Below are positions 6,468 to 20,949 of a stretch of DNA of 64,000 bases, piece after piece. Made by a program: the position numbers and the translations under genes. Source of the stretch: an uncultured Desulfatibacillum sp. (GTDB taxonomy: Bacteria; Desulfobacterota; Desulfobacteria; Desulfobacterales; SpSt-501); NCBI GenBank assembly GCA_964427375.1, contig CAYRUF010000005.1, positions 69,286-133,285 of the forward strand, in the 5' to 3' direction. The notes beneath the pieces are model-generated. The model saw nothing but the letters and a program-made list of their open reading frames with translations. It was not told the origin of the DNA and ran no database searches. Positions within the stretch are counted from its first letter, which is position 1. Each line of letters opens with the position of its first letter.

Positions 6468-6472
6468 GAGCG

Positions 6473-8617: not shown

Positions 8618-9385
8618 TTACCACCATCGGATCAGTTCCGTGACCTGTTTGCGGATGGCGACGAATTTGGGATCGATCAAGCTGCGTGGCCTGGGAAGGT
8701 CGACCTCGACTTCGGCCTTGATGTTGGTCGGCTTATTGCTGAGAACCAGGATGCGTTCGGCCACGTAAACAGCTTCTTCGATGTTGTGGGTGACGAAGAT
8801 GACCGTGCTTTTGAGCGTCTGCCAGAGTTTGACGAGTTCGTCCTCCAGGTAGTAGCGCAATTTGACGTCCAGCTGGCCGTAAGGTTCGTCCATCAGCAGC
8901 AGGTCGGGGTCCACGGCAAAGGCACGAGCGACGGTGATGCGTTGCACCATGCTGGCTGAGACCTGGTTGGGGTAGAGGTTTTGCGTCTCGGTGAGTCCAA
9001 CCAGATCCAGCATATAATCAACCCGCTTGCGGACGTCATCGCCCTTGAAGCCCTTGATCTCCATGCCGTAGGCTACATTTTGACGGACCGTCCGCCACGG
9101 CAGGCAGGTCGGCTCCTGGAAAACAAAGGAGATGTTGTGCTTCTTGGGGTCGGCCACCTCGCCGTCGATGAAGATGTCCCCCTCGCTGGTGGGCATGAGC
9201 TTGGAAAGGCAGTTTAAAAAGGTGGTCTTGCCGCAGCCCGTCGGTCCGACGATGGCCAGAAACTCGCCCTGGGCGACCTGGAAGTTGATTCGGTTCAGCA
9301 CCAGGAGGTCGCCGAACCGTTTGGTCAGGTTCTTAACTTCAATTTTGACGCGTCTTGTTTCCGGGTTCAGGGCTGCAGCTTCCAA
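8618..9385 (-). CDS. ABC transporter ATP-binding protein with degenerate signature motif
   Basis: Walker A is GPTGCGKTT and Walker B is LLMDEPY, but the LSGGQ position reads VSASMVQR. The start is TTG at 9385, preceded by GAGGAG with a 6-nt spacer. Confidence 0.85.
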   Translation of the reverse strand: MEAAALNPETRRVKIEVKNLTKRFGDLLVLNRINFQVAQGEFLAIVGPTGCGKTTFLNCLSKLMPTSEGDIFIDGEVADPKKHNISFVFQEPTCLPWRTVRQNVAYGMEIKGFKGDDVRKRVDYMLDLVGLTETQNLYPNQVSASMVQRITVARAFAVDPDLLLMDEPYGQLDVKLRYYLEDELVKLWQTLKSTVIFVTHNIEEAVYVAERILVLSNKPTNIKAEVEVDLPRPRSLIDPKFVAIRKQVTELIRWW

Positions 9386-9672
9386 GGAGTGCTCCTCATT
9401 TATGCTGGCTCGGCACTGGCCGGCGATCCAGTGTCTGCTCTGCCGTTGATGATTGTCTCCCGAGATTTTGCAGGGTTTGACAATGCGTTTCTTGGATGCA
9501 TTGGAAAGGAGGTATCTTGACGTGAAGGATGCGGCGAACGCCTGGTGAAATCATAAAACCGCAGGGGCTGAGACTCAAACGCCGCCATGGATCGAACCGT
9601 CCTGCACAAGTGTCCGACATGCGTTTCCGTGAAGGTTTCGACGGCCGGTTGATTGGAGCGATAACCGGCGCT

Positions 9673-9689
9673 TGATATATCAGATATCA
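9673..9689. promoter_or_regulatory. Candidate operator: palindrome TGATATATCA followed by GATATCA
   Basis: TGATATATCA (9673-9682) is a perfect 10-bp palindrome, immediately followed by a repeat of the GATATCA half. It is an AT-rich patch about 290 bp upstream of the operon's first gene. The operon ends with a GntR regulator. Confidence 0.3.
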
Positions 9690-9901
9690 GAAAACGGCGT
9701 CAAGAACTATTTGAGGGCTTTCGGTAGCGGAGCTGAATTAAAAAATGCGCGCTCGGGTAAATGCCGGTCGGCATCAGATGCTCGAAGTCTGAGGATGATT
9801 CCGGGTTGCCTTCGGAACAAACGGGATTGCCCAATCGCTTGAAAAGCGATGCAGAGCCAGATCCATTTCGTGACGGTCGGGAGAAAACGGATACGAGCTG
9901 G

Positions 9902-10178
9902 GTGCTCGTCGTCCTCACCATCTTGGGCCTGGCGGCCGGCGCACCGCTGGCCCTACGTGGTCGGGGCCTTTGGAGTGCTCGCGTTCGCGGCGACGGACCA
10001 GGGGCGGTATCCGGCGGTCCAGCCCCAGCGCATCTTATCCCAGATCGACAGCTTCTCCCTCGTGGCCATGTGCCTCTTTATCACCACCGGGGAAATCATG
10101 AACCGTACCGGCGTCACCCGCGCGCTGGTGGACTTCACCATGTGCCGGGTCGGCCGCCTCCGCGGGGGGTCGGGGTAT
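9902..10178 (+). pseudogene. TRAP transporter large permease (DctM) N-terminal fragment, frameshifted and truncated
   Basis: Two frames read VLVVLTILGLAAGAPLA / PYVVGAFGVLAFAA...ILSQIDSFSLVAMCLFITTGEIMNRTGVTRALVDFTMCRVGRLRGGSGYV. This matches the conserved DctM N-terminus (dSF.LlaiPlFilaGelMn.gGit.rLv.fa..lvG.lrGGl). Only about 100 of roughly 430 expected residues are present. Confidence 0.6.
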
Positions 10179-10205
10179 GTGAAGTGCGGGGGCAGCGACC
10201 GGTCC

Positions 10206-10392
10206 CGGAAGATCGCCGCCGTCTGCGCGGCGGCCGGGATCCCCTGCTACCTCGGAGGCTGCATCGAGACGCACCCGGGGGTTGGGGCCTCGGTTCCCTT
10301 TTCGCGGCGACGCCCAACATCGGTTCCGCGGCCGAGCTGCGCGCGGAGTCGGCCGATGTGGACGAGGAGAAAGTGGCGCGCTACCGGACGCC
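10206..10392 (+). pseudogene. Enolase-superfamily (mandelate racemase/muconate cycloisomerase-like) C-terminal remnant
   Basis: KIAAVCAAAGIPCYLGGCIETHPGVGAS, then after a frameshift LFAATPNIGSAAEL...ADVDEEKVARYR. This resembles the C-terminal barrel strands and the ...LDeeavarYR tail of enolase-superfamily enzymes. Confidence 0.45.
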
Positions 10393-13137
10393 TTATGGAC
10401 CTGCCGAATCGGTGTCGGTGTCCGGCCGGAGGTTGACCGCGGAGACCTTGTATTCCGGGATCTTGGATATCGGGTCGACCGCCGGGCCGGTCAGGAGGTT
10501 GGCGGGAGCTTCGTGCCAGTGGAACGCCATGAAAGCCTGCCCGCGAGCCACCCGCCGGTCGCGGCGGGCGACGGTCCGAATGGCGCCGCGCCGCGAGGCG
10601 ACCCGGATCGGACGGCCGTCGGCCAGGCCGCAGCGTTCGGCATCTTCCGGGTTGACGTCGATCCGGCTGTGCGACACAAGCGTTTCCAGCACCGGCGCGC
10701 GGCGGCTCATGCTGCCGGTGTGCCAGTGCTCCAACACGCGGCCGGTGGTCAGCACGACGGGATAGTCCGCGCTCGGTTCTTCGGCCGGCGGACGGTATGC
10801 CACCACGTGGAACTTGCCCCGGCCGCGGGTAAAACGCTCCGCGTGCAGACGCGGGGTGCCGGGATGGCCTGCATCCCAGACGGGCCATTGCAGGCCGCCG
10901 CACTGCGCCAGTCGCCCGTGGCGGACGCCGGCATAGATCGGCGTGAGCGATGCGATTTCATCCATGATCGCCTCGCTCGAAACATAAGCCATGGAGTAGC
11001 CGCATCGGGTCGCAACGTCCGCCACGATGCGCCAGTCCTCCCGGGCCTCGCTTGGCGCCGGAAGCGCACGGCGCACCAGCTGAATGCGGCGTTCCGTACT
11101 GGTGAAGGTGCCCTCTTTTTCTGCAAAGCAGGCGGCGGGCAGCACGACATCGGCCCGGAGGGCCGTTTCCGTCAGGAAGATGTCCTGGACGACCAGAAAG
11201 CCGATCCGGCTGAAAGCCGTTCGCGCATGGCTCAAATCGGGTTCGCTCATCAGCGGGTTTTCGCCGACCACATACAGCGCGTGCAGCCGTCCCTCGCCGG
11301 CGGCCTGGGCCATCTCCGTCAGCGACAGCCCCGGTTCGGGATCGAGCTCAACCCCCCAGGCCCGCGAAAACCTGGAGCGGACCTCGGCGTCGATCACTTT
11401 CTGGTAGCCGGGGAACACGTTCGGAAGCGCCCCCATGTCGCAGGCCCCCTGCACATTGTTCTGGCCGCGCAGGGGCGAGAAGCCCGTCCCCGGCCGGCCC
11501 ATGTTGCCGGTGAGCATGAGCAGATTGGCGACGGCTTTGACGTTGTCGGTGCCGGTGGTGTGCTGGGTGATCCCCATTCCGTATACGACGACCAGGGTCT
11601 CGGTCGTGCCGAGAATGCGGGCGCTGCGGGCGATGTCAGCCGCCGGGACGCCGGTGACGGCTTCCACGGTATGCGGTTCATAGGCGCCGAGCGAGCGCCG
11701 GAAGAGATCGAAATCCTCGCAGCGTTCGGTGACGAAGTCGGCCTTGAACAGCCCCTCGCGGAGGATGACGTGCATCAGGCCGTTGAGCAGGGCCACGTCG
11801 GTGCCCGGCCGGTGGCACAGGTGCACGGCGGCCATCTCCGCAAGCTCGGTTTGGCGGGGGTCGGCGACGATCAGCCGCGCGCCGTTCAGCCGGACGTTCT
11901 GTTTGATCCTTCGGCCGATGATCGGGTGGCACTCGGTCGTGTTGGAGCCGATCACCAGCAGGGCGGCCGCGCGCCCGATGTCATCGATGCTGTTGCTCAT
12001 AGCCCCCTCGCCGAAGGCAGCCAGAGCGGCCGCCACCGTGGAGGAATGGCACAGCCGGGCGCAGTGGTCGACATTGTTCGTGCGCAGGACGGCCCGGGCG
12101 AATTTCTGCACGATATAGTTCTCCTCATTCGTGCACTTGGCCGAACTCAGCACCCCGACGGCCCGGGGACCTCCTTCCTCGCGCGCGCCTATAAGTCCAG
12201 CCGCCACACGATCCAGGGCTTCCTCCCAGCCGGCTTCGCGGAATAGCTCCGCAACCGCCCCCCGGGTGTGCGACTTGAGAACCCCCTCCCGGCGGATCAA
12301 GGGGCGGGTGAGGCGTTCCGGGTGATGCACGAAATCCAGGCCGAAGCGTCCCTTCACGCACAGGCCGCCCTGGTTCACCGGGCTGCTGCGGTCGCCCTTG
12401 ACCGATACGATGCGGTCCCCGCGGACCCCGAGCGCCATGGAGCAGCCCACTCCGCAGAACGGGCACACCGTCGTAACCTCGCGCTGAGGGACCGCCGCCT
12501 GCTTGGGCACCAGCGCCCCGGTGGGGCAGCGCTCCACGCACTCGCCGCAGGTCTGGCAAACCGACTGCGCCAGGGGCTTCGCACCGAAGGCGCTGACGCG
12601 CGCGCGAAAGCCCCGCGAGGCGAAGTCGATCGCCCCCAGCCCCTGGATTTCATGGCACACCCGCACGCACTTGCCGCACAGGATGCATTTGTTGGGGTCG
12701 AAGGAAAAAGCGGGGTTGGAGTCGTCGATGGGCCTGGCGGCCGCCGTCCGGCGCAGGCGTCCGACGTCGGAAGGCCCCACGCCGAGGTAGCGCGCCACCG
12801 CCAGCAGCTCGCAGTCCCGAGCTTTGAAGCAGGTCAGGCAATCGTTCGGGTGGTTGGCGACGGCCAGCGCGATAATGTTGCGGCGGATGCGGCGGATGGA
12901 CTCGCTTTCCGTGGCGACCACCATGCCGTCCGCGGCCGGGGTGGTGCACGCGGTGGGCAGCCCCCGCAGGCCGTCGATCTGCACGATGCACAGCCGGCAG
13001 GCGCCGAAAGGCTTCAAGAAGGGATCGTCGCAGAGGGTCGGAATGTAGATGCCGGCCGACCGGGCCGCCTGGAGGACGGTCGATCCCGCCGGCGCCTGGA
13101 CGATGCGGCGGTCAATGGTGAGGGAGATCGATTTCAC
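10393..13137 (-). CDS. fdhA: Formate dehydrogenase alpha subunit (molybdopterin, Cys-type) with NuoG-like N-terminal 2Fe-2S/4Fe-4S domains
   Basis: It has an N-terminal 2Fe-2S ferredoxin (CRLCIVQIDG), a HPNDCLTC motif and 2x4Fe-4S (CILCGKCVRVC, CQTCGECVERCP). The MopB 4Fe-4S is TVCPFCGVGCS, the active site is VDHCARLCHSST (Cys at the Sec/Cys position), and RGQNNVQGACDMG is present. I set the start at GTG 13137 (VKSISLTIDRR) with GGAGGA upstream. There is no Tat signal, so the enzyme is cytoplasmic. Confidence 0.9.
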   Translation of the reverse strand: MKSISLTIDRRIVQAPAGSTVLQAARSAGIYIPTLCDDPFLKPFGACRLCIVQIDGLRGLPTACTTPAADGMVVATESESIRRIRRNIIALAVANHPNDCLTCFKARDCELLAVARYLGVGPSDVGRLRRTAAARPIDDSNPAFSFDPNKCILCGKCVRVCHEIQGLGAIDFASRGFRARVSAFGAKPLAQSVCQTCGECVERCPTGALVPKQAAVPQREVTTVCPFCGVGCSMALGVRGDRIVSVKGDRSSPVNQGGLCVKGRFGLDFVHHPERLTRPLIRREGVLKSHTRGAVAELFREAGWEEALDRVAAGLIGAREEGGPRAVGVLSSAKCTNEENYIVQKFARAVLRTNNVDHCARLCHSSTVAAALAAFGEGAMSNSIDDIGRAAALLVIGSNTTECHPIIGRRIKQNVRLNGARLIVADPRQTELAEMAAVHLCHRPGTDVALLNGLMHVILREGLFKADFVTERCEDFDLFRRSLGAYEPHTVEAVTGVPAADIARSARILGTTETLVVVYGMGITQHTTGTDNVKAVANLLMLTGNMGRPGTGFSPLRGQNNVQGACDMGALPNVFPGYQKVIDAEVRSRFSRAWGVELDPEPGLSLTEMAQAAGEGRLHALYVVGENPLMSEPDLSHARTAFSRIGFLVVQDIFLTETALRADVVLPAACFAEKEGTFTSTERRIQLVRRALPAPSEAREDWRIVADVATRCGYSMAYVSSEAIMDEIASLTPIYAGVRHGRLAQCGGLQWPVWDAGHPGTPRLHAERFTRGRGKFHVVAYRPPAEEPSADYPVVLTTGRVLEHWHTGSMSRRAPVLETLVSHSRIDVNPEDAERCGLADGRPIRVASRRGAIRTVARRDRRVARGQAFMAFHWHEAPANLLTGPAVDPISKIPEYKVSAVNLRPDTDTDSAGP

Positions 13138-13163
13138 GACGGCTTCCTCCGCAGGCGGGATCG

Positions 13164-15014
13164 TCAACAGATGGCGATCGCCTGCTGCTTGCAGGACTGG
13201 TAGCACATGCCGCAGCGGGTGCACCGGCTCGTGTCGATGACGTGCGGCGCTTTTTTCTCCCCGGCCACGGCCCCCGTCGGACATTCGCGGGCGCAGCGGT
13301 GGCAGCCCGTACAGCGTTCGGGGTCGATTTCATAGTGAAAAAGATCCCGGCAGACCCCCGCCCGGCATTTGCGGCTATGGACATGACTCTCGTATTCCCC
13401 GCGGAAATAGCGCAGGGTGGAAAGGACCGGGTTGGGCGCGGTCTGCCCCAGCCCGCACAGCGATCCTTTCTGGACGGTCTCGCTCAGGTCGGCCAGCAGG
13501 TCGAGATCCGCCTCCCGGCCGCGGCCGCCGCAGATGTCCTCCAGGATGTCGAGCATCTGTCGGGTTCCCAGGCGGCAGGGCAGGCACTTGCCGCAGGATT
13601 CCGCCTGGGTGAAGCTCAGGAAGTAGCGCGCCACGTCCACCATGCAGGTGTCCTGGTCCATGACCACCATGCCGCCGGAGCCCATGATGGAGCCGGCCGC
13701 CACGAGGGATTCGTAGTCGGCCGGCAGGTCGAAACGGCCGGCCGGGATGCAGCCTCCGGAAGGCCCGCCCGTCTGGACCGCCTTGAGGGCCTTGCCCTCG
13801 GGCGCGCCGCCGCCGATGCCCTCGATGATGTCGCCCAGGCTCATTCCGAGAGGAACTTCGATCAGGCCGGTGCGGCGGATCTTGCCGGCCAACGAAAACG
13901 TCTTGGTGCCCTTGCTGGATTCGGTGCCGAAGCGGGAATACCATTCGGCTCCGCGCTGCAGGATGGCGGAGACGTTGCCGAGCGTCTCGACGTTGTTGAT
14001 GGTGGTGGGCTCGCCCCACAAGCCGGACTGGGCCGGAAACGGAGGCCGGGATCGGGGCATGCCGCGCTCGCCTTGAATCGAGGCCATCAAGGCGGTCTCC
14101 TCGCCGCAGACAAAGGCTCCGGCGCCTTGTTTGATCGCGACCTGGAACCGGAACCGGCTGCCCAATACGTTCCGGCCCAGGAGGCCGCAACGCTGCATAT
14201 CGGCGATGGCTTTTTCCAGACGGGCGATGGCCAGCGGGTATTCGGCGCGCGCGTAGATGTAGCCTTCGTCGGCGCCGATGGCATAGGCGGCGATGAGCAT
14301 GCCTTCCAGCACGGCGTGCGGATCGCCCTCCAGCAGCGCGCGGTCCATGAAGGCGCCGGGGTCGCCTTCGTCGGCGTTGCAGACGATGTACTTCGATCGG
14401 CCGGGGGCCCGGCGGGCGAAAGCCCATTTGGTCCCGGTGGGAAAGCCGGCCCCGCCGCGGCCGCGCAGCCCGGAGTCCGTGACTTCGCGGATCACCGCTT
14501 CGGGCGGCATGTCCAGGGCGCGCTTGAGGCCGGCGTAGCCGCCGCGGGCGATGTAGTGGTCGATGTGGGTCGGGTCGATATGCCCGCAGTTGCGCAGAGC
14601 GATGCGAACCTGGGAGCGCATCATCGGGTGCCGCTCCATGGGCGGGATGCCCTCGATCTCGCCTTGGCCGCAAGTGAACTCCGCCCAACGCCGGCAGGGA
14701 TCGTCCTGTTTCAGGTAGCGGGTGAGGATCGTCTCGGTTTTTTCCGGCGTCAGCCCACCGTAGAAGATCGCCGGCCTTCCCGGCTTGCGGACGCTCATGA
14801 GGGGCTCGGCATAGCACATGCCGATGCAGCCGACCTCCATGAAGCGGGCCAGGACACGAGCCGATTTCAACGTCTTTTTGGCGGCGGCCAGGACCTGTTC
14901 GGCACCCGAAGCGCGGCCGCAGGTCCCCATGCCGATGGCGATCAACGGCTGCGGAAGGTTTTCCAGCCACGCCCACTCCCGTTCCGCCTTGGCTTGCAGC
15001 GACTGGTAGTCCAT
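13164..15014 (-). CDS. NuoF/HydB(HndC)-type NAD(P)H-FMN flavoprotein with N-terminal thioredoxin-like 2Fe-2S and C-terminal 2x[4Fe-4S] domains
   Basis: 616 aa with GRGGAGFPTGTKW, CNADEGDPGAF, ESCGKCLPCRLG and a C-terminal CTGCHRCARECP...CTRCGMCYQSC. The N-terminus has GTCGRASG...GCIGMCYAEP. Confidence 0.9.
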   Translation of the reverse strand: MDYQSLQAKAEREWAWLENLPQPLIAIGMGTCGRASGAEQVLAAAKKTLKSARVLARFMEVGCIGMCYAEPLMSVRKPGRPAIFYGGLTPEKTETILTRYLKQDDPCRRWAEFTCGQGEIEGIPPMERHPMMRSQVRIALRNCGHIDPTHIDHYIARGGYAGLKRALDMPPEAVIREVTDSGLRGRGGAGFPTGTKWAFARRAPGRSKYIVCNADEGDPGAFMDRALLEGDPHAVLEGMLIAAYAIGADEGYIYARAEYPLAIARLEKAIADMQRCGLLGRNVLGSRFRFQVAIKQGAGAFVCGEETALMASIQGERGMPRSRPPFPAQSGLWGEPTTINNVETLGNVSAILQRGAEWYSRFGTESSKGTKTFSLAGKIRRTGLIEVPLGMSLGDIIEGIGGGAPEGKALKAVQTGGPSGGCIPAGRFDLPADYESLVAAGSIMGSGGMVVMDQDTCMVDVARYFLSFTQAESCGKCLPCRLGTRQMLDILEDICGGRGREADLDLLADLSETVQKGSLCGLGQTAPNPVLSTLRYFRGEYESHVHSRKCRAGVCRDLFHYEIDPERCTGCHRCARECPTGAVAGEKKAPHVIDTSRCTRCGMCYQSCKQQAIAIC

Positions 15015-15023
15015 GGCCTCCCC

Positions 15024-16022
15024 CTAATCCTCCTCCGGCCGCTCCGGGATGGGGATGCGCTCCTGCTCCCGAATGTCAGCGAAACACCGGCAGGCACTGG
15101 CCGGGTTCATGCGGCCCTTGACGGAATCGTCCACCACCATGACCGGCGCAATGGCGCAGGAACCGAAGCAGGCCACGGTTTCGAGGGTGAACTGCCGGTC
15201 CGGCGACGTCTCCCCGGGAGACAGCTCGAAGCGGTGATGGATTTCCTCCAGAATGCGGTCCGAGCCTTTGACGTGGCAGGCCGTGCCGCGGCAGACGCGG
15301 ACGATGTGGCGGCCGACGGGGGCGAGGCGGAACTGCTCGTAGAAGGTGGCGGTGCCGAAAACGGCGGCAGCCGGCCGCCCGGTCAGCTGCGCGACGGCCT
15401 CGAGGGCGTTCTCCGGCAGATATCCCAATCGCCCCTGAACCATCTGGAGCATGGGAATCACCTCGTCGGGCCGGCCGGCGAATTGACTGCGCAGCTCGGC
15501 CAGGAGGCGGTCGATGCGGGCCGGGTCCTCGCGGGTCAGATGCAGGTCCGCTTCGAGCGGCGCGGCCGGCGGCGCCGGCGCCGGCACGGGGTGCGCGGCC
15601 TCCGGTGCCGTTGCCTTCTTCGAACCCAGGGCGCCTTTGACCGCCGAAACGAATTCGTCTTCGCTGAACGGCTTGGAGAGATAGTCTGCCGCCCCGAGTT
15701 TCATGGCCGTGACCGCCGAGTCCACCGTGGAATAGCCGGTGATCACGATCACGCCGGTTTCCGGCCGGTCGTGCTTGACCTGCCGAATCACCTCCAGGCC
15801 GTCGATGTCGGGAAGACGCAGGTCGGCGATGAGCAGGTCGACCTCCTTGTGATGGAACGTGTCCAGCGCGGCCTGGCCGGACATGGCCAGGTCCACGGCG
15901 CGGTAGCCCTCTTCGTCCAGGATCATCTGAAGCCCCCTGGCCACGCTGGTTTCGTCTTCCAGCACCAGAATCTGCGGCCATGGGCGTTCTGCCGAATGGA
16001 CGGCTTCCTGCAGCGCATTCAT
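15024..16022 (-). CDS. Response-regulator receiver domain fused to NuoE/HydC-type [2Fe-2S] ferredoxin subunit
   Basis: Start at ATG 16022 (MNALQEAV...). REC motifs are ILVLEDE, DLLIADLRLPDIDG, VITGYS and YLSKPF. An Ala/Pro linker is followed by NuoE motifs VCRGTACHVKG and ACFGSCAIAPV. Confidence 0.85.
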   Translation of the reverse strand: MNALQEAVHSAERPWPQILVLEDETSVARGLQMILDEEGYRAVDLAMSGQAALDTFHHKEVDLLIADLRLPDIDGLEVIRQVKHDRPETGVIVITGYSTVDSAVTAMKLGAADYLSKPFSEDEFVSAVKGALGSKKATAPEAAHPVPAPAPPAAPLEADLHLTREDPARIDRLLAELRSQFAGRPDEVIPMLQMVQGRLGYLPENALEAVAQLTGRPAAAVFGTATFYEQFRLAPVGRHIVRVCRGTACHVKGSDRILEEIHHRFELSPGETSPDRQFTLETVACFGSCAIAPVMVVDDSVKGRMNPASACRCFADIREQERIPIPERPEED

Positions 16023-16056
16023 GCGGGTGTCCCCCTGTGCGATGGAGCGGCCCGGC

Positions 16057-16752
16057 CTACCAGGCCTCCCGTTCCAGCCGATGGTAGATGAATCGGAGCT
16101 GATCGCCCGAAAGGGTCTCGACGTGTTCACGGAGCCACTGCACGTCGCCCGAGGCGATCGCCGCCTTGGCTTCGGCGGTCAGCCGGTAGCCGTCCAGAAC
16201 CGCGGAACCCCGCTCCATCAGCTCCTTCCAGAAGCCTTCGTCCAGCCGGGTGCGGTCCAGTACCGCGACGACCTCGCGTTTCTGGATGAGCTTGTCTTCC
16301 TCGCACTTTTCAACCTTCTGGATCACCTCTTCGGTGGGGGCCGATTTATGGCCCTTGAGCGCGTCGCCCACGGCCGTTTTGATCTCATCCTCGGTGAAGG
16401 GCTTGGGCAGGTAGTCGAACGTGCCCAGCTTCATCGCATCCACCGCGGAGGAAACGCTCGCATAGCCGGTGATAACCACCACACCGGTCTCGGGCCGCCG
16501 CGTCTTCACCTCGCGGATAACGTCCAGGCCGCTGATATCCGGCAGCCGCAGGTCCGCCACCAGCAGGTCGAACGCCTTCTGCGAGAAGCGATCCAGGGCA
16601 TCGCGTCCGGTCATGGCCAAATCCACGGCGTAGCCTTCTTCGCCGAGAACGATTTCAAGGCCCTTGGCCACGCTCATTTCATCCTCCATCACGAGAATCC
16701 TGGGCGGGACCGGGTGCGGTCGGCTGATGGTGGTGTCTTGGAAGGTAAACAT
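16057..16752 (-). CDS. Stand-alone receiver-domain protein with unassigned ~85-aa C-terminal helical domain
   Basis: Start at ATG 16752 (MFTFQDTT...), preceded by GAGGAGGA. REC motifs are ILVMEDE, DLLVADLRLPDISG, VITGYA and YLPKPF. The C-terminus (LDEGFWKELMERGSAVLDGYRLTAEAKAAIASGDVQWL...) faintly resembles LigA-subunit/NHLP-type helical domains. Confidence 0.8.
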   Translation of the reverse strand: MFTFQDTTISRPHPVPPRILVMEDEMSVAKGLEIVLGEEGYAVDLAMTGRDALDRFSQKAFDLLVADLRLPDISGLDVIREVKTRRPETGVVVITGYASVSSAVDAMKLGTFDYLPKPFTEDEIKTAVGDALKGHKSAPTEEVIQKVEKCEEDKLIQKREVVAVLDRTRLDEGFWKELMERGSAVLDGYRLTAEAKAAIASGDVQWLREHVETLSGDQLRFIYHRLEREAW

Positions 16753-16791
16753 GGTCGATCCTCCTCTTTGAGCGGTCCTGCCATGGTATGT

Positions 16792-16807
16792 AGCAAGCCG
16801 CATGCCG
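16792..16807 (-). promoter_or_regulatory. Sigma-54 (-24/-12) promoter of the REC-REC/NuoE-NuoF-FdhA operon
   Basis: The minus strand reads CGGCATGCGGCTTGCT against the consensus TGGCACG-N4-TTGCW, with correct GG-N10-GC spacing. It lies about 40 nt upstream of ATG 16752. Confidence 0.6.
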
Positions 16808-16846
16808 CTCGCAGGAGCAACTCGGGCGCTTATGAATTTAATGAAA

Positions 16847-16859
16847 TATCAATTTGTTG
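16847..16859. promoter_or_regulatory. IHF-like site between enhancer repeats and the sigma-54 promoter
   Basis: TATCAATTTGTTG matches WATCAANNNNTTR inside an AT-rich patch. Confidence 0.35.
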
Positions 16860-16902
16860 GAAGTGGGCTGGGAATTGGAAGGCCGGCTTTCGGGATTGAA
16901 AG

Positions 16903-16983
16903 CGTATCGCCAACCATACGCCGGCGGCCGGGACCGATCTATTTTACTACTAAATTCGATTAGTTATTACCGTATGATTGGCG
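16903..16983. promoter_or_regulatory. Candidate enhancer (UAS): inverted copies of a 13-bp motif
   Basis: CGCCAACCATACG (16908-16920) and its reverse complement with one mismatch, CGTATGATTGGCG (16971-16983). The first copy also forms a local palindrome, CGTAT-N8-ATACG (16903-16920). Both lie 100-175 bp upstream of the -24 element. Confidence 0.4.
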
Positions 16984-16992
16984 GAACGCCAG

Positions 16993-18426
16993 TCACCGGG
17001 GCTCATTCGAAGGGCCGGTGTCGGCTCCTCGGTCGGGGGTGATGCCGTGCCGTTTCAGCAGGGTGGAGAAGTTGGGCCGCTGCATGCCGACAGCCTTGGC
17101 CGCCGCGCTGATGTTCCCTCCGGCGTTGGAAAGCGCTTTGAGCAGAAAGGCCTTTTCCATCCGGCCATAGTGCTCCTCAATGATGCGTTTCTTTAGCGCA
17201 CGCAGCTCGCCCAGCGTGCCGGGGACCCGGCTGGCGGCACCTCCCCGGCTGCCGTGCAGATTGTCCATCAGGTGGTGATAATCCAGGATGGATTCGTCCG
17301 CCATGATCACCAGCCGTTCCACCACATTTTTGAGCTGCCGCACGTTGCCCGGCCAGTCATGGTTGATCAGGGCTTCCAGGGCTTCGTCGCTGAAGCCCTG
17401 GATCCGCCGGCCCATCTCGCGGCAGTAGATGCGGAGGAAGTGATAAGCCAGCTTGGGGATGTCCTCGCGGCGCTCCCGCAGCGGGGGGATGAAAATGGGC
17501 AGGACGCTCAGCCGGTAGAACAGATCCTCGCGAAACCGGCCCTCCTCGGCCAGCGACCTCAGGTCCTGGTTGGTGGCGGCGATGATGCGGATGTCGGTCC
17601 GGCGCGGCAGGCTTGCGCCGACCGGCCGGTACTCGCGGGTTTCCATCACGCGCAGCAGCTTGCCCTGAACGTCCAGCGTCAAATTGGCCACTTCGTCCAG
17701 GAACAGGGTCCCGCCGTTGGCCACTTCGAAAATGCCGGGCTTATCGTGGGTGGCGCCGGTGAACGCTCCTTTGACATGCCCGAACAGCTCGCTTTCCAGC
17801 AGCGACGGCGCAAAGGTGCTGCAATCGGCCACCACGAACTGCCGGTCGGCGCGGTGGCTGTGGGCGTGGATGGCCTTCGCGAACAGCTCCTTGCCGGTGC
17901 CGCTTTCGCCCTCCAGCAGAATGATGGTCTCGGTCGGGGCGGCCCGGCGGATTTCCTCGAAGATGCGCAGCATTTTCGGGTTTTCGCCGACGATGTTGCT
18001 GAAATCAAATTTGGCATACAGCTGTCGGCGCAGGGCCAGGTTTTCCTCGGTCAGCCGCCGGGTCTTGACGGCTTTCTCAACGGTCAGGACGAGCTCTTCG
18101 TCCGAAAACGGCTTGGACAGGTAGTCGAAAGCGCCCAGCTTCATGGCTTTCACGGCGTCCGGCACCGAGGAATAGCCGGTCATGACCACCACGCTGACCC
18201 TGGGACGCTCGCGGTGGATGACTTCGAGGACTTGAAGCCCGTCGATGTCCGGGAGCTTCATGTCCAGCAGGACCAGTTCATAGGGGTTTTTCCCCAGCGA
18301 TTCGAGGCCGCTGCAGCCGTCGTGCACGGCGTCCACGGCGTATCCCTGGTCGCACAGGACCAGGCGGCAGCCGGCACAGACGGCAGGTTCGTCGTCGATG
18401 ATCAGGATGGATGCGGACGGCGTCAT
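16993..18426 (-). CDS. Sigma-54-dependent response regulator (NtrC family: REC-AAA+-Fis HTH)
   Basis: The REC phospho-acceptor context is LVLLDMKLPDIDG. Other motifs are GESGTGKELFA, GAFTGA, ESELFGH and a C-terminal HTH (GNISAAAKAVGMQRPNFSTLLKRHGI). Confidence 0.92.
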   Translation of the reverse strand: MTPSASILIIDDEPAVCAGCRLVLCDQGYAVDAVHDGCSGLESLGKNPYELVLLDMKLPDIDGLQVLEVIHRERPRVSVVVMTGYSSVPDAVKAMKLGAFDYLSKPFSDEELVLTVEKAVKTRRLTEENLALRRQLYAKFDFSNIVGENPKMLRIFEEIRRAAPTETIILLEGESGTGKELFAKAIHAHSHRADRQFVVADCSTFAPSLLESELFGHVKGAFTGATHDKPGIFEVANGGTLFLDEVANLTLDVQGKLLRVMETREYRPVGASLPRRTDIRIIAATNQDLRSLAEEGRFREDLFYRLSVLPIFIPPLRERREDIPKLAYHFLRIYCREMGRRIQGFSDEALEALINHDWPGNVRQLKNVVERLVIMADESILDYHHLMDNLHGSRGGAASRVPGTLGELRALKKRIIEEHYGRMEKAFLLKALSNAGGNISAAAKAVGMQRPNFSTLLKRHGITPDRGADTGPSNEPR

Positions 18427-18439
18427 CGTCGGTCCTCGG

Positions 18440-19663
18440 TCAAGCCGGGCCTTGCGCGGAGGGCAGGGCCACGGTGAATTGCGATCCCTGTCCCGGCCGG
18501 CTGGACACCTCCAGCCGCCCCTGGTGGTTTTTGACGATTCCGAAACTGACCGCCAGGCCGAGCCCGGAGCCGTTTTTCTTGGTCGAGAAGAAGGGCTCGA
18601 AGATCTTGCCCAGATTTTCGGCCGGGATTCCGCAGCCGGTGTCGATGATGTCCACGGTTAGCTCGCGGCGGGCCGAATTCGCGCGGGATCGAATGGTGAT
18701 CGTGCCGTTCTCGTCGATGGCTTGGGCTGCGTTGAGCAGCAGGTTCACGAACACCTGCTCCAGCTGGTTGGCGTCGACGCAGCCGTCCGGCAGATCGGGG
18801 GCCAGATCTTTTTCGATTCGGATGTGCCTCAGGCGGAATTCGTTCTCAAGGATGTTGAGGGATTTCTGAAGGATGGTGGTGATGCTGGCCGGGGTCTTGC
18901 GGGGCTCTTTGTCGCGGGCGAACTCCAGCAGCTCCTGGATGATGAACTTGCAGCGTTGGGTTTCCCGCATGATGATCCCCAGGCCTTCTTTCAAGGGGCC
19001 TTCGTCCGGAACCTTCTTGAATAAATTCGAGCTGAAGAGCAGGATTCCGGCCAAGGGGTTGTTGATCTCGTGCGCGATCCCGGCCGCCATGCGTCCCAAC
19101 GCCGAAAGCTTCTCCGTCTGCAAGGCCAGCAGGTCGAACTTGTTCTTCTGGGCTTCGATGAGGCGGTTTTTTTCGATCGCCAGCGCGCACTGGTCCGCCA
19201 GGGAAACCAGAAAGTCGCGCTCCTCGTCCGATACCGATCGTGCTTCAGCAAAGTAAATCCGCAGGATGCCGGCGATGTGGTTGCGGAAACTCAGGGAGGT
19301 GTCCAATACCATCCGGATCCCCTCCCTGGCAACCTCCTGGGGGTAGTGGATGCGAGGGTCGTGATGGATATCCTCGATCACGATCACCCGGCTTTGACGA
19401 TACAGGTCCGTGATCAGGTTTTTCTGGCTGACGGGTCCTTTGGCCAGGTAGGCTTCGCTGAGATTGTAGGCGGCGCTCAACTCCAGCTCGTCCGTGTCCA
19501 GGTTGAGGATGCGCAGGATGGCGCCCTTGGCGCCCAGCGCCTCGGTGGCCTTCCAGACCGCCAGGTCCAGAACTTCCTTCAAATCGGTGCTGGAGTGCAC
19601 CGCCTTGCTGATTTCGCGGAAGGTGTTGTAAAAGACATGGAGGTTGCTGGCGTTCGGCTTCAT
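18440..19663 (-). CDS. Cytoplasmic GAF-domain sensor histidine kinase
   Basis: 407 aa with no TM segment. It has an N-terminal GAF-like region, an H-box (AAGIAHEINNPL), an N-box (LLNAAQA) and G-boxes (DTGCGI, GSGLGLA). Confidence 0.9.
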   Translation of the reverse strand: MKPNASNLHVFYNTFREISKAVHSSTDLKEVLDLAVWKATEALGAKGAILRILNLDTDELELSAAYNLSEAYLAKGPVSQKNLITDLYRQSRVIVIEDIHHDPRIHYPQEVAREGIRMVLDTSLSFRNHIAGILRIYFAEARSVSDEERDFLVSLADQCALAIEKNRLIEAQKNKFDLLALQTEKLSALGRMAAGIAHEINNPLAGILLFSSNLFKKVPDEGPLKEGLGIIMRETQRCKFIIQELLEFARDKEPRKTPASITTILQKSLNILENEFRLRHIRIEKDLAPDLPDGCVDANQLEQVFVNLLLNAAQAIDENGTITIRSRANSARRELTVDIIDTGCGIPAENLGKIFEPFFSTKKNGSGLGLAVSFGIVKNHQGRLEVSSRPGQGSQFTVALPSAQGPA

Positions 19664-19929
19664 GTTCCAGGCTCCTCGGGGTAAAAGGTCAGAGCCGGGT
19701 GGCCGCAGGCGGCGGCCAACCGCCGACGGATGAGATTGGTCCGGGAAAGACGCTCGGCGGCTGGCCGGGTGACTTAAAGCCTACGCCTGCGGCCGATGGG
19801 ATGTCAAGGAGAATCGATTGGCCCAAACCGCTGAATGGGGTATTGCCCGGCGGTTCATCATCGAACAACAATAAAGAAACGGCCGCCCAACTTCTGGGTG
19901 CGCCGCTTGGCTTCACAGCAGGAGGCGAA

Positions 19930-20949
19930 ATGAAAACCATACCGCTGGGGGCGACCGCCCTGGAGATTTCCGAGATCGGCTTTGGGGGGATTCCGATCAT
20001 CCCGCTGCCGCGCGACGAGGCGGTTTCGGTGGTCCGGCACTGCATCGATCGGGGGATTACCTTTTTTGATACGGCCAACATGTATACCACGAGCGAAGAG
20101 AAGCTCGGGATCGCTCTGAAGCCGGATCGCGGCAAAGTCGTCATCGCTACCAAGACCGCTCAGAGGGATGGCCGGGGGGCTGTCGATCACCTGGAGCTGT
20201 CTTTGAAGCAGCTTCAAACCGACTGGATCGACGTCTACCAGCTTCATAACGTGTCCAACGAGGATGCGCTCCAGCAGGTGCTGGCCCCCCAGGGCGCCTA
20301 CGAGGCCGTTGCCAAGGCCCGCGACGCCGGCAAGATCCGTTTCATCGGCATTTCGTCCCACAGCATCCCGACGGCCATGGCGGCTTTGAGGACGGGTTTG
20401 TTCCAGACCCTCCAATTCCCGTTCAATTTCATCGAAAACGACCCGGCCCAAGAGCTGTTTCCCCTGGCAATTCAAAACCAGGTGGGCATCATCGGCATGA
20501 AACCCCTCGGCGGAGGCCTCCTGGAACGCGCCGACCTGTGCTTCAAATTTCTGCAGCAGCACCCCTATGTGGTGCCGATCCCCGGGATCCGAGCCGGGAA
20601 AGAAATCGACGAGATCCTTGAACTGTACCGGAACCCGCAGCCGCTTTCAGAGGCCGATTTAAAGGCGATCGAAACGATTCGCTCCGACGTGGGCGAGAGA
20701 TTCTGCCACCGCTGCGAGTACTGCATGCCCTGCCCGCAGGGCGTCCAGATTTCATCGGTCCTCATGCTGCGGCCGGCCGCCAAACGTTTGTCGTGCGAAA
20801 ACGTCAAGGGCTGGCTCGGAGCGGCCATGGAAACCGTCCAGCAGTGCATCGAGTGCGGGGAATGCGAACAGAAATGCCCCTACAACCTGCCGATTTCCGA
20901 TCTGCTCAAGGAAAACCTGGCGCTGTTCCATCAGTATACGCGCCGTTAG
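19930..20949 (+). CDS. Aldo/keto reductase with C-terminal 4Fe-4S-binding extension
   Basis: Start at ATG 19930 (MKTIPLGATALEISEIGFGG), preceded by GGAGG. It has an AKR fold pattern and a C-terminal CHRCEYCMPCP ... CIECGECEQKCP. Confidence 0.85.
   Translation: MKTIPLGATALEISEIGFGGIPIIPLPRDEAVSVVRHCIDRGITFFDTANMYTTSEEKLGIALKPDRGKVVIATKTAQRDGRGAVDHLELSLKQLQTDWIDVYQLHNVSNEDALQQVLAPQGAYEAVAKARDAGKIRFIGISSHSIPTAMAALRTGLFQTLQFPFNFIENDPAQELFPLAIQNQVGIIGMKPLGGGLLERADLCFKFLQQHPYVVPIPGIRAGKEIDEILELYRNPQPLSEADLKAIETIRSDVGERFCHRCEYCMPCPQGVQISSVLMLRPAAKRLSCENVKGWLGAAMETVQQCIECGECEQKCPYNLPISDLLKENLALFHQYTRR

What the first reader, a model, noticed from the sequence alone, without database searches (positions are those of the whole stretch)
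15024..19663. One kinase and three closely related receiver domains: a possible branched phosphorelay coupling transcription and enzyme control
Three REC domains share long, nearly identical blocks: those of the NtrC-type activator, the stand-alone REC protein and REC-NuoE. Compare MTGYSSVPDAVKAMKLGAFDYLSKPFSDEEL, ITGYASVSSAVDAMKLGTFDYLPKPFTEDEI and ITGYSTVDSAVTAMKLGAADYLSKPFSEDEF.
Only one histidine kinase is encoded here, and it is cytoplasmic with a GAF sensor domain.
The simplest reading is that one sensor phosphorylates all three receivers. That would drive sigma-54 transcription of the FDH operon and also modify the enzyme it induces.
Basis: inference. Interest (0 to 1): 0.7.

Follow-up and report, generated by a model that had tools for sequence, protein, structure and literature searches.

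The report
Kinase, three receivers, formate dehydrogenase operon
A sulfate-reducer-type bacterium encodes one cytoplasmic sensor kinase next to three phospho-receiver domains: one switches on the formate dehydrogenase operon, and the other two are encoded in that operon and appear attached to the enzyme, so one signal may control both making the enzyme and its behaviour.

Summary
On the minus strand lie a GAF histidine kinase, an NtrC-type sigma-54 activator, a REC protein ("REC2"), REC-NuoE, a NuoF-like subunit and FdhA. The 64 kb window holds exactly one kinase and three receivers.

"Closely related" is only partly right. REC2 and the NuoE receiver are sisters (67% identical). The NtrC receiver belongs to another clade (43-44%). 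The quoted block is the generic NtrC-family alpha4-beta5-alpha5 signature.

- A sigma-54 -24/-12 element sits in front of REC2, with an IHF-like site and a CGTAT-N8-ATACG palindrome upstream. The promoter recurs in 51 of 83 related loci.
- The kinase, activator and REC2 recur together beside cytoplasmic FDH genes in about 80 Desulfobacterota loci.
- The residues that set kinase specificity are more alike among the three receivers than in any background receiver tested.

New points:
- REC2 is not stand-alone. It carries a conserved LigA-like C-terminal domain ("R2C"), which is also the C-terminal extension of FdhA wherever NuoE lacks a receiver.
- Some relatives have REC-REC-R2C instead.
- No Hpt protein is present, so this would be a one-to-many two-component system, not a phosphorelay.

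Phosphotransfer and any effect on the enzyme remain untested.

The parts
18440..19663 (-). Cytoplasmic sensor histidine kinase, 407 aa: GAF, HisKA (H-box AHEINNPL, phospho-His at residue 198) and HATPase_c
   Evidence: Pfam. The NCBIfam best match is the AtoS/ZraS-type catalytic core, below the curated cut-offs. It is the only kinase in the window. The DHp specificity positions are nearly invariant in 73 orthologues.
16993..18426 (-). NtrC-type enhancer-binding response regulator, 477 aa: REC, sigma-54 AAA+ domain (GAFTGA at residue 220) and Fis-type HTH
   Evidence: Pfam. NCBIfam places it nearest AtoC/NtrC, below the equivalog cut-offs. GAFTGA was checked. It starts 13 nt after the kinase stop codon.
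16971..16988 (-). Degenerate upstream copy of the putative activator-binding palindrome (CGTTC-N8-ATACG), 68 bp from the exact copy
   Evidence: Read from the intergenic sequence. The same 68-bp spacing of two sites is seen in L023 and L025.
16903..16920 (.). Putative upstream activating sequence: exact palindrome CGTAT-N8-ATACG
   Evidence: The only exact match in the 64 kb window. An exact copy lies 240-350 nt upstream of the REC2 receiver domain in most of the 47 (of 83) related loci that carry one.
16847..16859 (+). IHF-consensus match TATCAATTTGTTG, between the palindrome and the promoter
   Evidence: The only WATCAANNNNTTR match on either strand of the window. That it bends DNA here is inferred.
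16792..16807 (-). Sigma-54 type -24/-12 promoter element CGGCATGCGGCTTGCT (GG-N10-GC), 40 nt before the REC2 start codon
   Evidence: A strict match lies at the equivalent position in 51 of 83 related loci.
16057..16752 (-). REC2, 231 aa: receiver domain, a long helix, then a conserved ~85-residue helical LigA-like domain (R2C) ending RLEREAW. It is the first gene of the sigma-54 operon.
   Evidence: The start at 16752 follows an AGGAGG ribosome-binding site and matches the 229-231 aa homologues. AF2 model, pLDDT 84. R2C: sub-threshold LigA / Frankia_peptide hits, PDB profile E=0.03, Foldseek best match DesB LigA-like domain with probability 0.95 and TM 0.66.
15024..16022 (-). REC-NuoE, 332 aa: receiver domain, a Pro/Ala-rich variable linker of about 45 residues, then a NuoE-type thioredoxin-like [2Fe-2S] domain with all four Cys ligands
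   Evidence: Pfam. The family has more than 1,500 members and all listed members have this architecture. The phospho-acceptor Asp, the Lys and the four Cys are invariant in A2 and the Thr nearly so; the linker columns are unconserved. Linker sequence.
13164..15014 (-). NuoF-like flavoprotein subunit, 616 aa, with an N-terminal thioredoxin-like domain and a C-terminal 2x[4Fe-4S] ferredoxin domain (HydB/Bfu-type architecture)
   Evidence: Pfam. The closest solved chains are the B subunits of bifurcating-type complexes: 9BOV_B, 9N5U_B, 7T2R_B, 8OH5_B, 8A6T_B and 7Q4V_B.
10393..13137 (-). FdhA: NuoG-like Fe-S N-terminus fused to a molybdopterin formate dehydrogenase catalytic domain (Cys type, CARLCHSS). 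It has no R2C-like C-terminal extension.
   Evidence: TIGR01591 scores 806 bits against a cut-off of 666. The closest solved chains are the FDH alpha subunits 9WXB_B and 6TG9_A, then the tungsten FDH 7VW6_A/7E5Z_A. GTG start at 13137 with a GGAGGA ribosome-binding site. Absence of the extension.

Best explanation
This is a conserved regulatory module for a cytoplasmic formate dehydrogenase (FDH) in Desulfobacterota.

Step 1, inferred from domain content and gene order. A soluble GAF-domain histidine kinase phosphorylates an NtrC-type activator.

Step 2, supported by conserved sequence elements. The activator binds a tandem CGTAT-N8-ATACG site. With IHF-assisted looping it opens a sigma-54 promoter in front of a four-gene operon: REC2, REC-NuoE, NuoF-like subunit, FdhA.

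Step 3, supported by comparative genomics. The two receivers encoded in that operon are a sister pair made by duplication, and both are linked to the enzyme. One is fused to the NuoE subunit through a flexible linker. The other carries a LigA-like helical domain (R2C). R2C is homologous to the C-terminal extension that FdhA has in relatives whose NuoE lacks a receiver.

Step 4, inferred and not shown. The same GAF kinase also phosphorylates these two enzyme-linked receivers. This would be one-to-many branching without an Hpt intermediate. The kinase-facing residues of all three receivers are unusually alike, and the kinase is the only one kept in the module.

Step 5, speculative. Phosphorylation of the tethered receivers, probably through receiver-receiver pairing, changes the assembly or activity of the NuoEF-FdhA complex. 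In addition, or instead, the receivers compete with the activator for phosphoryl groups, so that induction is damped in proportion to the amount of enzyme made.
For: - Domain map and uniqueness of the kinase and the three receivers in the window.
- The same six-gene cassette occurs with different flanking genes in distant genomes where REC-NuoE is 82%, 60% and 56% identical.
- Across about 80 loci the kinase, the activator and REC2-R2C always sit together by FDH genes.
- Sigma-54 element, palindrome and IHF-like site.
- Receiver tree: the NuoE receivers nest inside the REC2 clade, and the NtrC receivers group with the stand-alone receivers found next to the kinase in other loci.
- All catalytic receiver residues are conserved: the acidic pair, the phospho-Asp, Thr and Lys.
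- Specificity positions are similar. Scores are 20-22, against background means of about -2 to +1.5 with s.d. about 8. None of 349 background receivers below 50% identity reaches these scores, and no unrelated receiver in a second set of 70 does.
- Fusion evidence tying the receivers to the enzyme: REC-NuoE; REC-REC-R2C followed by a plain NuoE in L107; an R2C-like extension on FdhA in 11 of 11 plain-NuoE loci and 0 of 6 REC-NuoE loci; a stand-alone R2C-like gene just before nuoE in Dehalococcoidia.
- Precedent for a receiver protein as a subunit of a NADH-dehydrogenase-type complex: MSMEG_2064 in mycobacterial complex I (PMC10068793, PMC9274095).
Against: - No phosphotransfer, binding or activity data exist. 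Steps 4 and 5 are inference only.
- The NtrC receiver and the REC2/NuoE receivers belong to different clades. They differ consistently at alpha1 positions 15 (I vs V), 16 (C vs A), 19 (C vs L) and 21 (L vs M). This could encode different kinase preferences or different partners.
- The backgrounds used for the specificity test contain few NtrC-type receivers. Only one was found in the second set.
- The kinase's DHp specificity positions barely vary. The mutual-information test gave similar signals for every receiver class and is confounded by shared ancestry.
- Related genomes encode many kinases (PMC12316311). One REC-NuoE locus has a second GAF kinase after fdhA. Some loci have two GAF kinases (L155, L185).
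- R2C is assigned to the LigA-like fold only by sub-threshold matches.
- In this window FdhA has no R2C-like extension, so the partner of REC2's R2C domain here is unknown.
- In the commonest locus type the FDH is an HdrA/MvhD-linked enzyme without NuoE. R2C may therefore target FdhA, the activator or something else.
Confidence: 0.55

Rival explanations
1. Phosphate-sink or negative-feedback model. REC2 and REC-NuoE do not regulate the enzyme. They are made from the induced operon and compete with the activator for phosphoryl groups from the kinase, or drain them by back-transfer. Expression is thereby shut down in proportion to the enzyme already made. Attachment to the enzyme only sets the stoichiometry.
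For: - Both receivers are encoded downstream of the sigma-54 promoter, and REC2 is always the first gene.
- Their specificity positions resemble the activator's.
- The NuoE receiver hangs on a variable, flexible linker rather than a fixed interface.
- Many loci carry a further single-domain receiver beside the kinase. This is the classic sink layout, known from CheY-type sinks (established knowledge).
Against: - A pure sink does not need the conserved R2C domain, the fusion to NuoE or the R2C-like extension on FdhA.
- The complementary distribution of the two attachment modes argues that contact with the enzyme is itself selected.
Confidence: 0.2
2. Separate inputs. The linked GAF kinase serves only the NtrC-type activator. 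REC2 and the NuoE receiver are phosphorylated by an unlinked kinase or by small-molecule donors such as acetyl phosphate. The enzyme would then integrate a second signal.
For: - The two receiver clades keep different residues at alpha1 positions 15, 16, 19 and 21 across the whole family.
- Desulfobacteria encode very many two-component proteins (PMC12316311).
- An extra GAF kinase follows fdhA in L023, and some loci hold two GAF kinases.
- The mycobacterial complex I receiver subunit is likewise an orphan (PMC10068793).
Against: - In the window, and in most loci, a single GAF kinase is the only kinase kept in the module. In many loci it is encoded between REC2 and the next receiver.
- The core specificity positions are closer than in any unrelated background receiver.
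Confidence: 0.15
3. Phosphorylation-independent role. The two operon-encoded receiver domains act as structural dimerisation or scaffold modules for the FDH complex, or as partners that pair with the activator's receiver through the alpha4-beta5-alpha5 face. They would signal enzyme state back to transcription without being phosphorylated.
For: - The strongest conservation shared by all three receivers lies in alpha4-beta5-alpha5. This is the dimer face of NtrC1/DctD-type receivers (established knowledge).
- A tandem REC-REC-R2C form exists.
- AF2 predicts a long helix after the REC2 receiver, of the kind that forms coiled-coil dimers.
Against: The phospho-acceptor Asp, the acidic pair and Lys are invariant, and Thr invariant or nearly so, in the aligned sets of 28 REC-NuoE and 29 REC2 sequences. 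Pseudo-receivers usually lose some of these residues.
Confidence: 0.1

Closest known systems
NtrB/NtrC-class two-component systems with sigma-54 promoters (AtoS/AtoC, ZraS/ZraR, NtrB/NtrC)
   Same: - HisKA/HATPase kinase whose best NCBIfam similarity is to the AtoS/ZraS cores.
- REC-AAA+(GAFTGA)-HTH activator nearest AtoC/NtrC.
- GG-N10-GC promoter with an upstream palindrome and an IHF-like site.

   Different: - All scores are below the equivalog cut-offs, so this is a distinct family.
- The kinase is soluble and has a GAF sensor.
- The regulated operon itself encodes two more receivers of the NtrC-like type, both linked to the enzyme.
FhlA-controlled formate regulon of E. coli (sigma-54 activator that senses formate; GAF-domain content and formate sensing are from established knowledge)
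   Same: Sigma-54-dependent induction of a cytoplasmic formate dehydrogenase, with a GAF domain in the sensory component. The NCBIfam FhlA model matches the AAA+ region.
   Different: Here the GAF domain sits on a separate histidine kinase, and the activator is a phosphorylated response regulator. Whether formate is the ligand is unknown. FhlA has no receiver domains.
One-to-many (branched) two-component pathways, e.g. CheA to CheY and CheB, or PleC/DivJ to DivK and PleD (established knowledge)
   Same: One kinase is proposed to serve several receivers. One receiver controls an output directly, and the others are single-domain or enzyme-fused receivers.
   Different: Branching here is inferred only from gene linkage and specificity-residue similarity. 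The enzyme-side targets are subunits of a redox complex, not methylesterase or cyclase domains.
MSMEG_2064 / Rv3143, the orphan response regulator that is a subunit of mycobacterial respiratory complex I (PMC10068793, PMC9274095)
   Same: A receiver protein encoded at the head of the operon of a NuoE/F/G-containing redox enzyme, and physically part of that enzyme. Phosphorylation has been proposed to modulate its association.
   Different: - MSMEG_2064 is a free single-domain protein bound next to NuoB on the membrane complex, and its kinase is unknown.
- Here the receiver is covalently fused to NuoE of a soluble FDH, and a second receiver carries a separate helical (R2C) domain proposed here to dock it.
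- A candidate kinase and a transcriptional branch are encoded alongside.
- Homology beyond the receiver fold was not tested.
NAD-linked FdsGBA-type formate dehydrogenases, and HydABC/Bfu-type flavin-based bifurcating complexes
   Same: - FdhA is nearest the FDH alpha subunits 9WXB_B and 6TG9_A, then the tungsten FDH 7VW6/7E5Z.
- The NuoF-like subunit is nearest the B subunits of 9BOV, 9N5U, 7T2R, 8OH5, 8A6T and 7Q4V. Pfam shows its extra N-terminal thioredoxin-like and C-terminal ferredoxin domains.
   Different: I know of no receiver domain on the NuoE-type subunit of any solved complex of these types, and the literature searches found no paper describing one. Whether this enzyme bifurcates was not tested.
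LigA-like helical domains (LigA subunit, DesB C-terminal domain, LigA-type RiPP leader SonA)
   Same: R2C is a helical domain of about 85 residues. Weak sequence and fold matches to these domains come from three independent methods. These domains act as protein-binding caps or leaders (established knowledge).
   Different: All matches are below the family thresholds. R2C has its own strongly conserved motifs (LIQ, FW, EAKAAI.SGD, RLEREAW). It occurs on a response regulator and on FdhA.

Membership tests
Classical two-component system (histidine kinase plus response regulator) | HisKA domain with an H-box histidine, plus a HATPase_c catalytic domain | tested here: met
   Pfam HisKA E=4e-14 and HATPase_c E=8e-26. 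H-box AHEINNPL with His198.
Classical two-component system (histidine kinase plus response regulator) | Receiver domains that keep the acidic pair, the phospho-acceptor Asp, Thr/Ser and Lys | tested here: met
   Alignment with Spo0F. These residues are invariant or nearly so in the aligned REC-NuoE and REC2 sets.
Classical two-component system (histidine kinase plus response regulator) | Phosphotransfer from this kinase to these receivers | not testable with these tools
   This needs biochemical phosphotransfer profiling. Only specificity-residue similarity could be computed.
Multi-step phosphorelay (His-Asp-His-Asp) | An Hpt or Spo0B-type histidine phosphotransferase between the receivers | tested here: not met
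   No Hpt domain is found in any cassette protein by Pfam or NCBIfam. R2C has no invariant histidine. The rest of the window was not scanned with an Hpt profile.
NtrC-family bacterial enhancer-binding protein | REC, a sigma-54 interaction AAA+ domain with the GAFTGA loop, and a C-terminal HTH | tested here: met
   Sigma54_activat E=3.5e-65, and HTH_8 weak at 20.5 bits against a cut-off of 22. GAFTGA at residue 220.
NtrC-family bacterial enhancer-binding protein | Equivalog of a named regulator (AtoC, NtrC, ZraR) | tested here: not met
   Best match AtoC at 421 bits against a cut-off of 714; NtrC at 398 bits against 559.
Sigma-54-dependent operon | A -24 GG / -12 GC element with the correct spacing, upstream of the first gene and conserved in relatives | tested here: met
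   CGGCATGCGGCTTGCT at 16807..16792. A strict motif is present in 51 of 83 loci at the equivalent position.
Sigma-54-dependent operon | Transcription that depends on RpoN and the activator | not testable with these tools
   This needs mutants and reporter or RNA assays.
Formate dehydrogenase alpha subunit (TIGR01591) | Score above the curated equivalog cut-off, and a Cys/Sec-His active-site motif | tested here: met
   805.6 bits against a cut-off of 666. CARLCHSS motif in the translation.
HydABC/Bfu-type electron-bifurcating complexes | A NuoF-like subunit with an added N-terminal thioredoxin-like domain and a C-terminal 2x[4Fe-4S] domain, plus a NuoE-like subunit | tested here: met
   Pfam domains. 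The best solved matches are B subunits of such complexes.
HydABC/Bfu-type electron-bifurcating complexes | Bifurcating or confurcating catalysis with NAD and ferredoxin | not testable with these tools
   This needs enzymology.
LigA-like domain (PF07746 / PF14407) for R2C | Score above the Pfam gathering threshold | tested here: not met
   13-29 bits against cut-offs of 25 and 48. PDB profile E=0.03. Foldseek probability 0.95 and TM 0.66 but E about 1. This is a fold-level resemblance only.
Receiver protein as a subunit of a Nuo-type complex (MSMEG_2064 type) | Physical presence of the receiver in the purified complex | not testable with these tools
   For REC-NuoE it follows from the covalent fusion. 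For REC2 it is only inferred from the distribution of R2C.

The most novel reading that the evidence does not exclude
A soluble, probably electron-bifurcating formate dehydrogenase carries two phospho-receiver domains as part of the enzyme. One is fused to NuoE. The other would dock through a LigA-like domain. The kinase that induces the operon would then also switch the assembled enzyme's activity, direction or oligomeric state by aspartyl phosphorylation, while the enzyme-bound receivers feed back on the activator. This would be direct two-component control of a redox enzyme complex. It would be widespread in Desulfobacterota, with interchangeable attachment modes: REC-NuoE, REC-REC-R2C, and an R2C-like extension on FdhA.
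Probability: 0.3. Interest if true: 0.8.

Novelty: new variant of a known kind. Interest (0 to 1): 0.6.

Why it matters
Formate and CO2 interconversion by cytoplasmic FDH complexes is central to syntrophy and to carbon flow in sulfate reducers. These enzymes are also of interest for CO2-reduction catalysis. Known control of them is transcriptional.

If the operon-encoded receivers really are enzyme-bound and phosphorylated, this would be a rare case of two-component signalling acting directly on a redox enzyme complex. Unlike the mycobacterial complex I receiver subunit, it would come with a candidate kinase and a transcriptional branch encoded beside it, which makes it readily testable.

The comparative data also define three things that could be used to annotate these loci:
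- a regulatory module of Desulfobacterota that I could not find described: GAF kinase, NtrC-type activator and REC-R2C protein;
- its promoter and binding-site motifs;
- a new small domain (R2C) shared by a response regulator and FdhA.

Tried and rejected
1. Kinase-receiver covariation across about 65 loci. The kinase's DHp specificity positions are almost invariant. Mutual information was similar for all receiver classes and is confounded by shared ancestry. Result: inconclusive.

2. Whole-library search with the NuoE receiver domain. The top of the list is dominated by multi-receiver proteins whose scores add up. It could not rank single receivers. It gave only overall counts and a background set.

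3. Fold search with full-length REC2. It returned only receiver domains, so R2C had to be modelled alone.

4. R2C as an FdsD-like subunit, an Hpt domain or a DNA-binding domain.
- No FdsD, Hpt or HTH family appears among the Pfam hits even at E<=10.
- R2C has no invariant histidine.
- Its presence on FdhA argues against DNA binding.
All three were rejected.

6. Literature searches for REC-NuoE, or for two-component or sigma-54 control of FDH in Desulfobacterota, found no description.

7. A sigma-54 promoter in front of the kinase gene. No match within two mismatches was found near 19664-19760.

8. The terminator and sigma-70 promoter scan around the cassette was uninformative.

Full report
**1. 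What is in the sequence**

The region 10393-19663 holds six minus-strand genes:
- A 407-aa soluble histidine kinase at 19663..18440. Its domains are GAF (residues 25-164), HisKA (189-251) and HATPase_c (297-403).
- A 477-aa NtrC-type activator at 18426..16993, starting 13 nt after the kinase stop. It has REC, a sigma-54 AAA+ domain with GAFTGA at residue 220, and a weak Fis-type HTH.
- REC2 at 16752..16057.
- REC-NuoE at 16022..15024.
- A 616-aa NuoF-like subunit at 15014..13164.
- FdhA at 13137..10393.

The mechanical ORFs for REC2, REC-NuoE and FdhA start too far upstream. Three things fix the real starts: homologues of 229-231, 312-332 and 914-924 aa, an AGGAGG ribosome-binding site before ATG 16752, and a GGAGGA site before GTG 13137.

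Profile HMMs built from the family find exactly one kinase, three receivers and one R2C domain among all six-frame ORFs of the 64 kb window at E<=1. The observation therefore stands.

**2. How close are the three receivers?**

They are not equally close. Within the window, REC2 and the NuoE receiver are 67% identical. The NtrC receiver is 43-44% identical to each. phmmer gives about 154 bits for the sister pair and about 103 bits for either against the NtrC receiver.

I built a neighbour-joining tree of 217 receivers from related loci. It has two clades:
- NtrC receivers together with the stand-alone receivers found next to the kinase in other loci.
- REC2 receivers, NuoE-fused receivers and the N-terminal receivers of tandem proteins.

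The NuoE receivers nest inside the REC2 clade. The fusion therefore arose by duplication of the REC2 receiver.

This is the best-conserved part of NtrC-family receivers in general. Aquifex NtrC1 reads [26 protein letters not shown] and NtrC4 reads [27 protein letters not shown]. The block alone is weak evidence of a special relationship.

Over the whole domain, though, the cassette's NtrC receiver is closer to the other two (about 103 bits) than the best receiver of known structure is (75 bits). By extrapolating E-values from bit scores, I estimate that it lies between the 300 library representatives at E<=1e-30 and the 85,871 at E<=1e-10, out of 687,453 matching proteins.

**3. The module is conserved**

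REC-NuoE is a family of more than 1,500 proteins, and every listed member has both domains. The same six-gene cassette, with different flanking genes, occurs in genomes whose REC-NuoE is 82%, 60% and 56% identical.

Mapping domains over about 95 fetched loci gave one constant core: a GAF kinase, the NtrC-type activator and REC2 beside cytoplasmic FDH genes. The loci include Desulfosarcina alkanivorans PL12 and Desulfacinum infernum DSM 9756. Three layouts recur:
- **Type A**, as in this window: REC2, REC-NuoE, NuoF, FdhA.
- **Type B**: REC2 or a tandem REC-REC-R2C protein, plain NuoE, NuoF, and an FdhA with a C-terminal extension.
- **Type C**, the commonest: activator, REC2, kinase, a stand-alone receiver, then an HdrA-like / MvhD / Fe-S / FdhA set.

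One GAF kinase with two to four receivers is thus the rule. A few loci have two GAF kinases (L155, L185). L023 has an extra GAF kinase after fdhA.

**4. Sigma-54 control of the operon**

The 240-nt gap between the activator gene and REC2 contains four elements:
- CGGCATGCGGCTTGCT at 16807..16792, with GG-N10-GC spacing, 40 nt before the start codon.
- An exact palindrome CGTAT-N8-ATACG at 16903-16920, unique in the window.
- A degenerate copy of the palindrome 68 bp further upstream.
- The window's only match to the IHF consensus, at 16847-16859.

The -24/-12 element is kept in L022, L023 and L025 although the rest of the spacer has diverged. The two-site arrangement with 68-bp spacing recurs in L023 and L025.

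Over 83 loci with enough upstream sequence, a strict promoter pattern is found in 51 at a consistent position, and the exact palindrome in 47. My rough base-frequency estimate of the chance expectation is about 0.1 and 0.04 loci respectively.

That the activator drives this promoter is therefore well supported by sequence. That the palindrome is its binding site is inferred. REC2 and REC-NuoE are products of the induced operon. No sigma-54 motif precedes the kinase gene.

**5. Could one kinase serve all three receivers?**

For their positions I used Capra et al. 2010 (PMC2991266), which places the residues that coevolve with the kinase on one face of alpha1 plus the beta5-alpha5 loop. Their Spo0F-equivalent numbering is from my own knowledge of Spo0F and OmpR.

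At positions 14, 15, 18, 21, 22 and 107, 108 the three receivers read:

| Receiver | alpha1 positions | loop positions |
|---|---|---|
| NtrC | A-V-G-L-V | S-D |
| REC2 | S-V-G-I-V | T-E |
| NuoE | S-V-G-M-I | S-E |

The differences are conservative, and all three share Gly18.

I scored BLOSUM62 similarity over these seven positions. NtrC against REC2 scores 20, and NtrC against the NuoE receiver scores 22. Two background sets were used:
- 379 receivers taken from the closest-scoring library proteins. With REC2 or the NuoE receiver as query, the means are -1.2 and -0.1 (s.d. 8-9), and none of the 349 below 50% identity reaches 20-22.
- 70 receivers from unrelated loci. The means are -0.3 to 1.5 (s.d. 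about 8) and the unrelated maximum is 14.

Several caveats apply:
- The two clades differ consistently at positions 15, 16, 19 and 21 (I-C-C-L against V-A-L-M).
- The backgrounds hold few NtrC-type receivers.
- The kinase's DHp positions are nearly invariant across 73 orthologues, so covariation could not discriminate.
- Desulfobacteria encode up to 69 enhancer-binding proteins per genome (PMC12316311). An unlinked kinase therefore cannot be excluded.
- No Hpt protein is present, so the term 'phosphorelay' does not apply.

**6. REC2 is not a stand-alone receiver**

Its last 85 or so residues form a strongly conserved domain, R2C, with motifs LIQ, FW, EAKAAI-SGD and RLEREAW. AF2 predicts a long helix after the receiver and then a small helical bundle. 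Mean pLDDT is 84 for the whole protein and 78 for the domain modelled alone.

Three weak but concordant results point to a LigA-like fold:
- Sub-threshold Pfam hits to LigA and Frankia_peptide.
- PDB profile matches to LigA-domain proteins at E=0.03.
- A best Foldseek match to the LigA-like C-terminal domain of DesB, with probability 0.95 and TM 0.66.

The same domain aligns without gaps at 24-35% identity, with 11 invariant columns, to two other things. One is the C-terminal extension of FdhA in type-B loci. The other is a stand-alone gene just before nuoE in Dehalococcoidia.

Its distribution is complementary to the NuoE fusion. The FdhA extension is present in 11 of 11 loci with plain NuoE and in 0 of 6 loci with REC-NuoE. 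These are probably two clades, so the counts are not independent. Together with the REC-REC-R2C proteins that precede a plain NuoE, this is Rosetta-stone-type evidence. It suggests that the operon-encoded receivers, R2C and the enzyme work as one physical unit.

What R2C binds in this window is unknown, because FdhA has no extension here.

**7. The enzyme**

FdhA passes the curated FDH-alpha model (806 bits against 666) and has a Cys-His active-site motif. Its nearest solved relatives are FdsA-type and tungsten FDHs.

The NuoF-like subunit has the extra N-terminal thioredoxin-like and C-terminal 2x[4Fe-4S] domains. It is nearest the B subunits of HydABC/Nfn/Stn-type complexes. A flavin-based bifurcating FDH is therefore plausible but untested.

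The NuoE part of REC-NuoE keeps all four cluster cysteines. It is joined to the receiver by a variable Pro/Ala-rich linker of about 45 residues.

**8. Mechanism and rivals**

The best-supported model has these steps:
- The GAF kinase phosphorylates the NtrC-type activator (inferred from domain content and gene order).
- The activator turns on the sigma-54 operon (supported by conserved sequence elements).
- The operon encodes two enzyme-linked sister receivers (supported by comparative genomics).
- The same kinase probably phosphorylates those receivers too (inferred).
- That changes the enzyme, or feeds back on induction by competing for phosphate (speculative).

Three rivals remain open: a pure phosphate sink, a separate unlinked kinase, and a phosphorylation-independent scaffold role. 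They are listed in the report with the evidence for and against each.

**9. Comparison with what is known**

- The transcriptional half is an ordinary NtrC-class system, but not an equivalog of any named one.
- One kinase serving several receivers is a known design.
- A receiver protein as a subunit of a Nuo-type complex has one structural precedent, MSMEG_2064 in mycobacterial complex I. Its authors called this unique to mycobacteria, and its kinase is unknown (PMC10068793, PMC9274095).
- I found no paper describing REC-NuoE, the REC-R2C protein or this module. Databases annotate REC-NuoE only as 'NuoE / CheY-like'.

I therefore rate it a new variant of known kinds. It is of moderate to high interest, and the key claim (phosphotransfer and enzyme control) is still unproven.

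Noticed in passing
window 16057-16341 (-); L029 13108-16083; L030 14326-17403; L035 9570-9947: The C-terminal ~85 residues of REC2 (R2C, LigA-like) are homologous to a C-terminal extension of FdhA in related loci, and to a stand-alone gene before nuoE in Dehalococcoidia. The FdhA extension is present in 11 of 11 loci with plain NuoE and in 0 of 6 loci with REC-NuoE.
   Followed up: yes
L106 10001-11155; L107 10001-11149: Some relatives replace REC2 plus REC-NuoE by a single ~380-aa REC-REC-R2C protein. In L107 this is followed by a plain NuoE, a NuoF fused to a GltD-like oxidoreductase (1029 aa), and FdhA called as two genes. The genes after it in L106 carry no precomputed Pfam annotation.
   Followed up: partly
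L173 (Desulfosarcina alkanivorans PL12) 6177-15428, and about 45 similar loci: The commonest layout of the regulatory module is: activator, REC2-R2C, GAF kinase, a stand-alone receiver, then an HdrA-like protein, MvhD, an Fe-S protein and an FdhA that is split in the ORF map (I presume at a selenocysteine codon; not checked). The module therefore serves at least two kinds of cytoplasmic FDH.
   Followed up: partly
L023 15952-17724; L025 7001-7360: Variants of the REC-NuoE cassette exist. One has an extra 590-aa GAF kinase directly after fdhA. Another has an extra 119-aa stand-alone receiver between the kinase and the activator.
   Followed up: no
L103 8193-13581: A Dehalococcoidia locus has a GAF kinase and two stand-alone receivers directly upstream of nuoE, nuoF and an FDH-like gene, with only distant similarity to this cassette. 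This may be an independent association of two-component genes with NuoEF-FDH operons.
   Followed up: no
window 9849-10436 (+): The roughly 1 kb gap after fdhA has no convincing gene. One ORF there contains a stretch that, from memory, resembles TRAP transporter DctM (…ITTGEIMNRTGVTRALVDF…), probably a gene remnant. No search was run on it. In L025, intact dctQMP genes lie about 1.5 kb after fdhA, beyond one other gene.
   Followed up: no
window 46407-46608 (-): Cobalamin riboswitch (RF00174, 113 bits), upstream of the minus-strand ORF 45000-46403.
   Followed up: no
window 520-9385 (-): Downstream gene cluster: an NMT1-type ABC transporter (binding protein, two permeases, two ATPases), an iron-containing alcohol dehydrogenase, a class-III aminotransferase and an aldehyde dehydrogenase. 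It looks like an amine or sulfonate utilisation cluster unrelated to the FDH module.
   Followed up: partly
window 19699-20949 (+): An aldo/keto reductase with a C-terminal 4Fe-4S dicluster domain is transcribed divergently from the kinase gene. The same neighbour appears near the cassette in L022.
   Followed up: no
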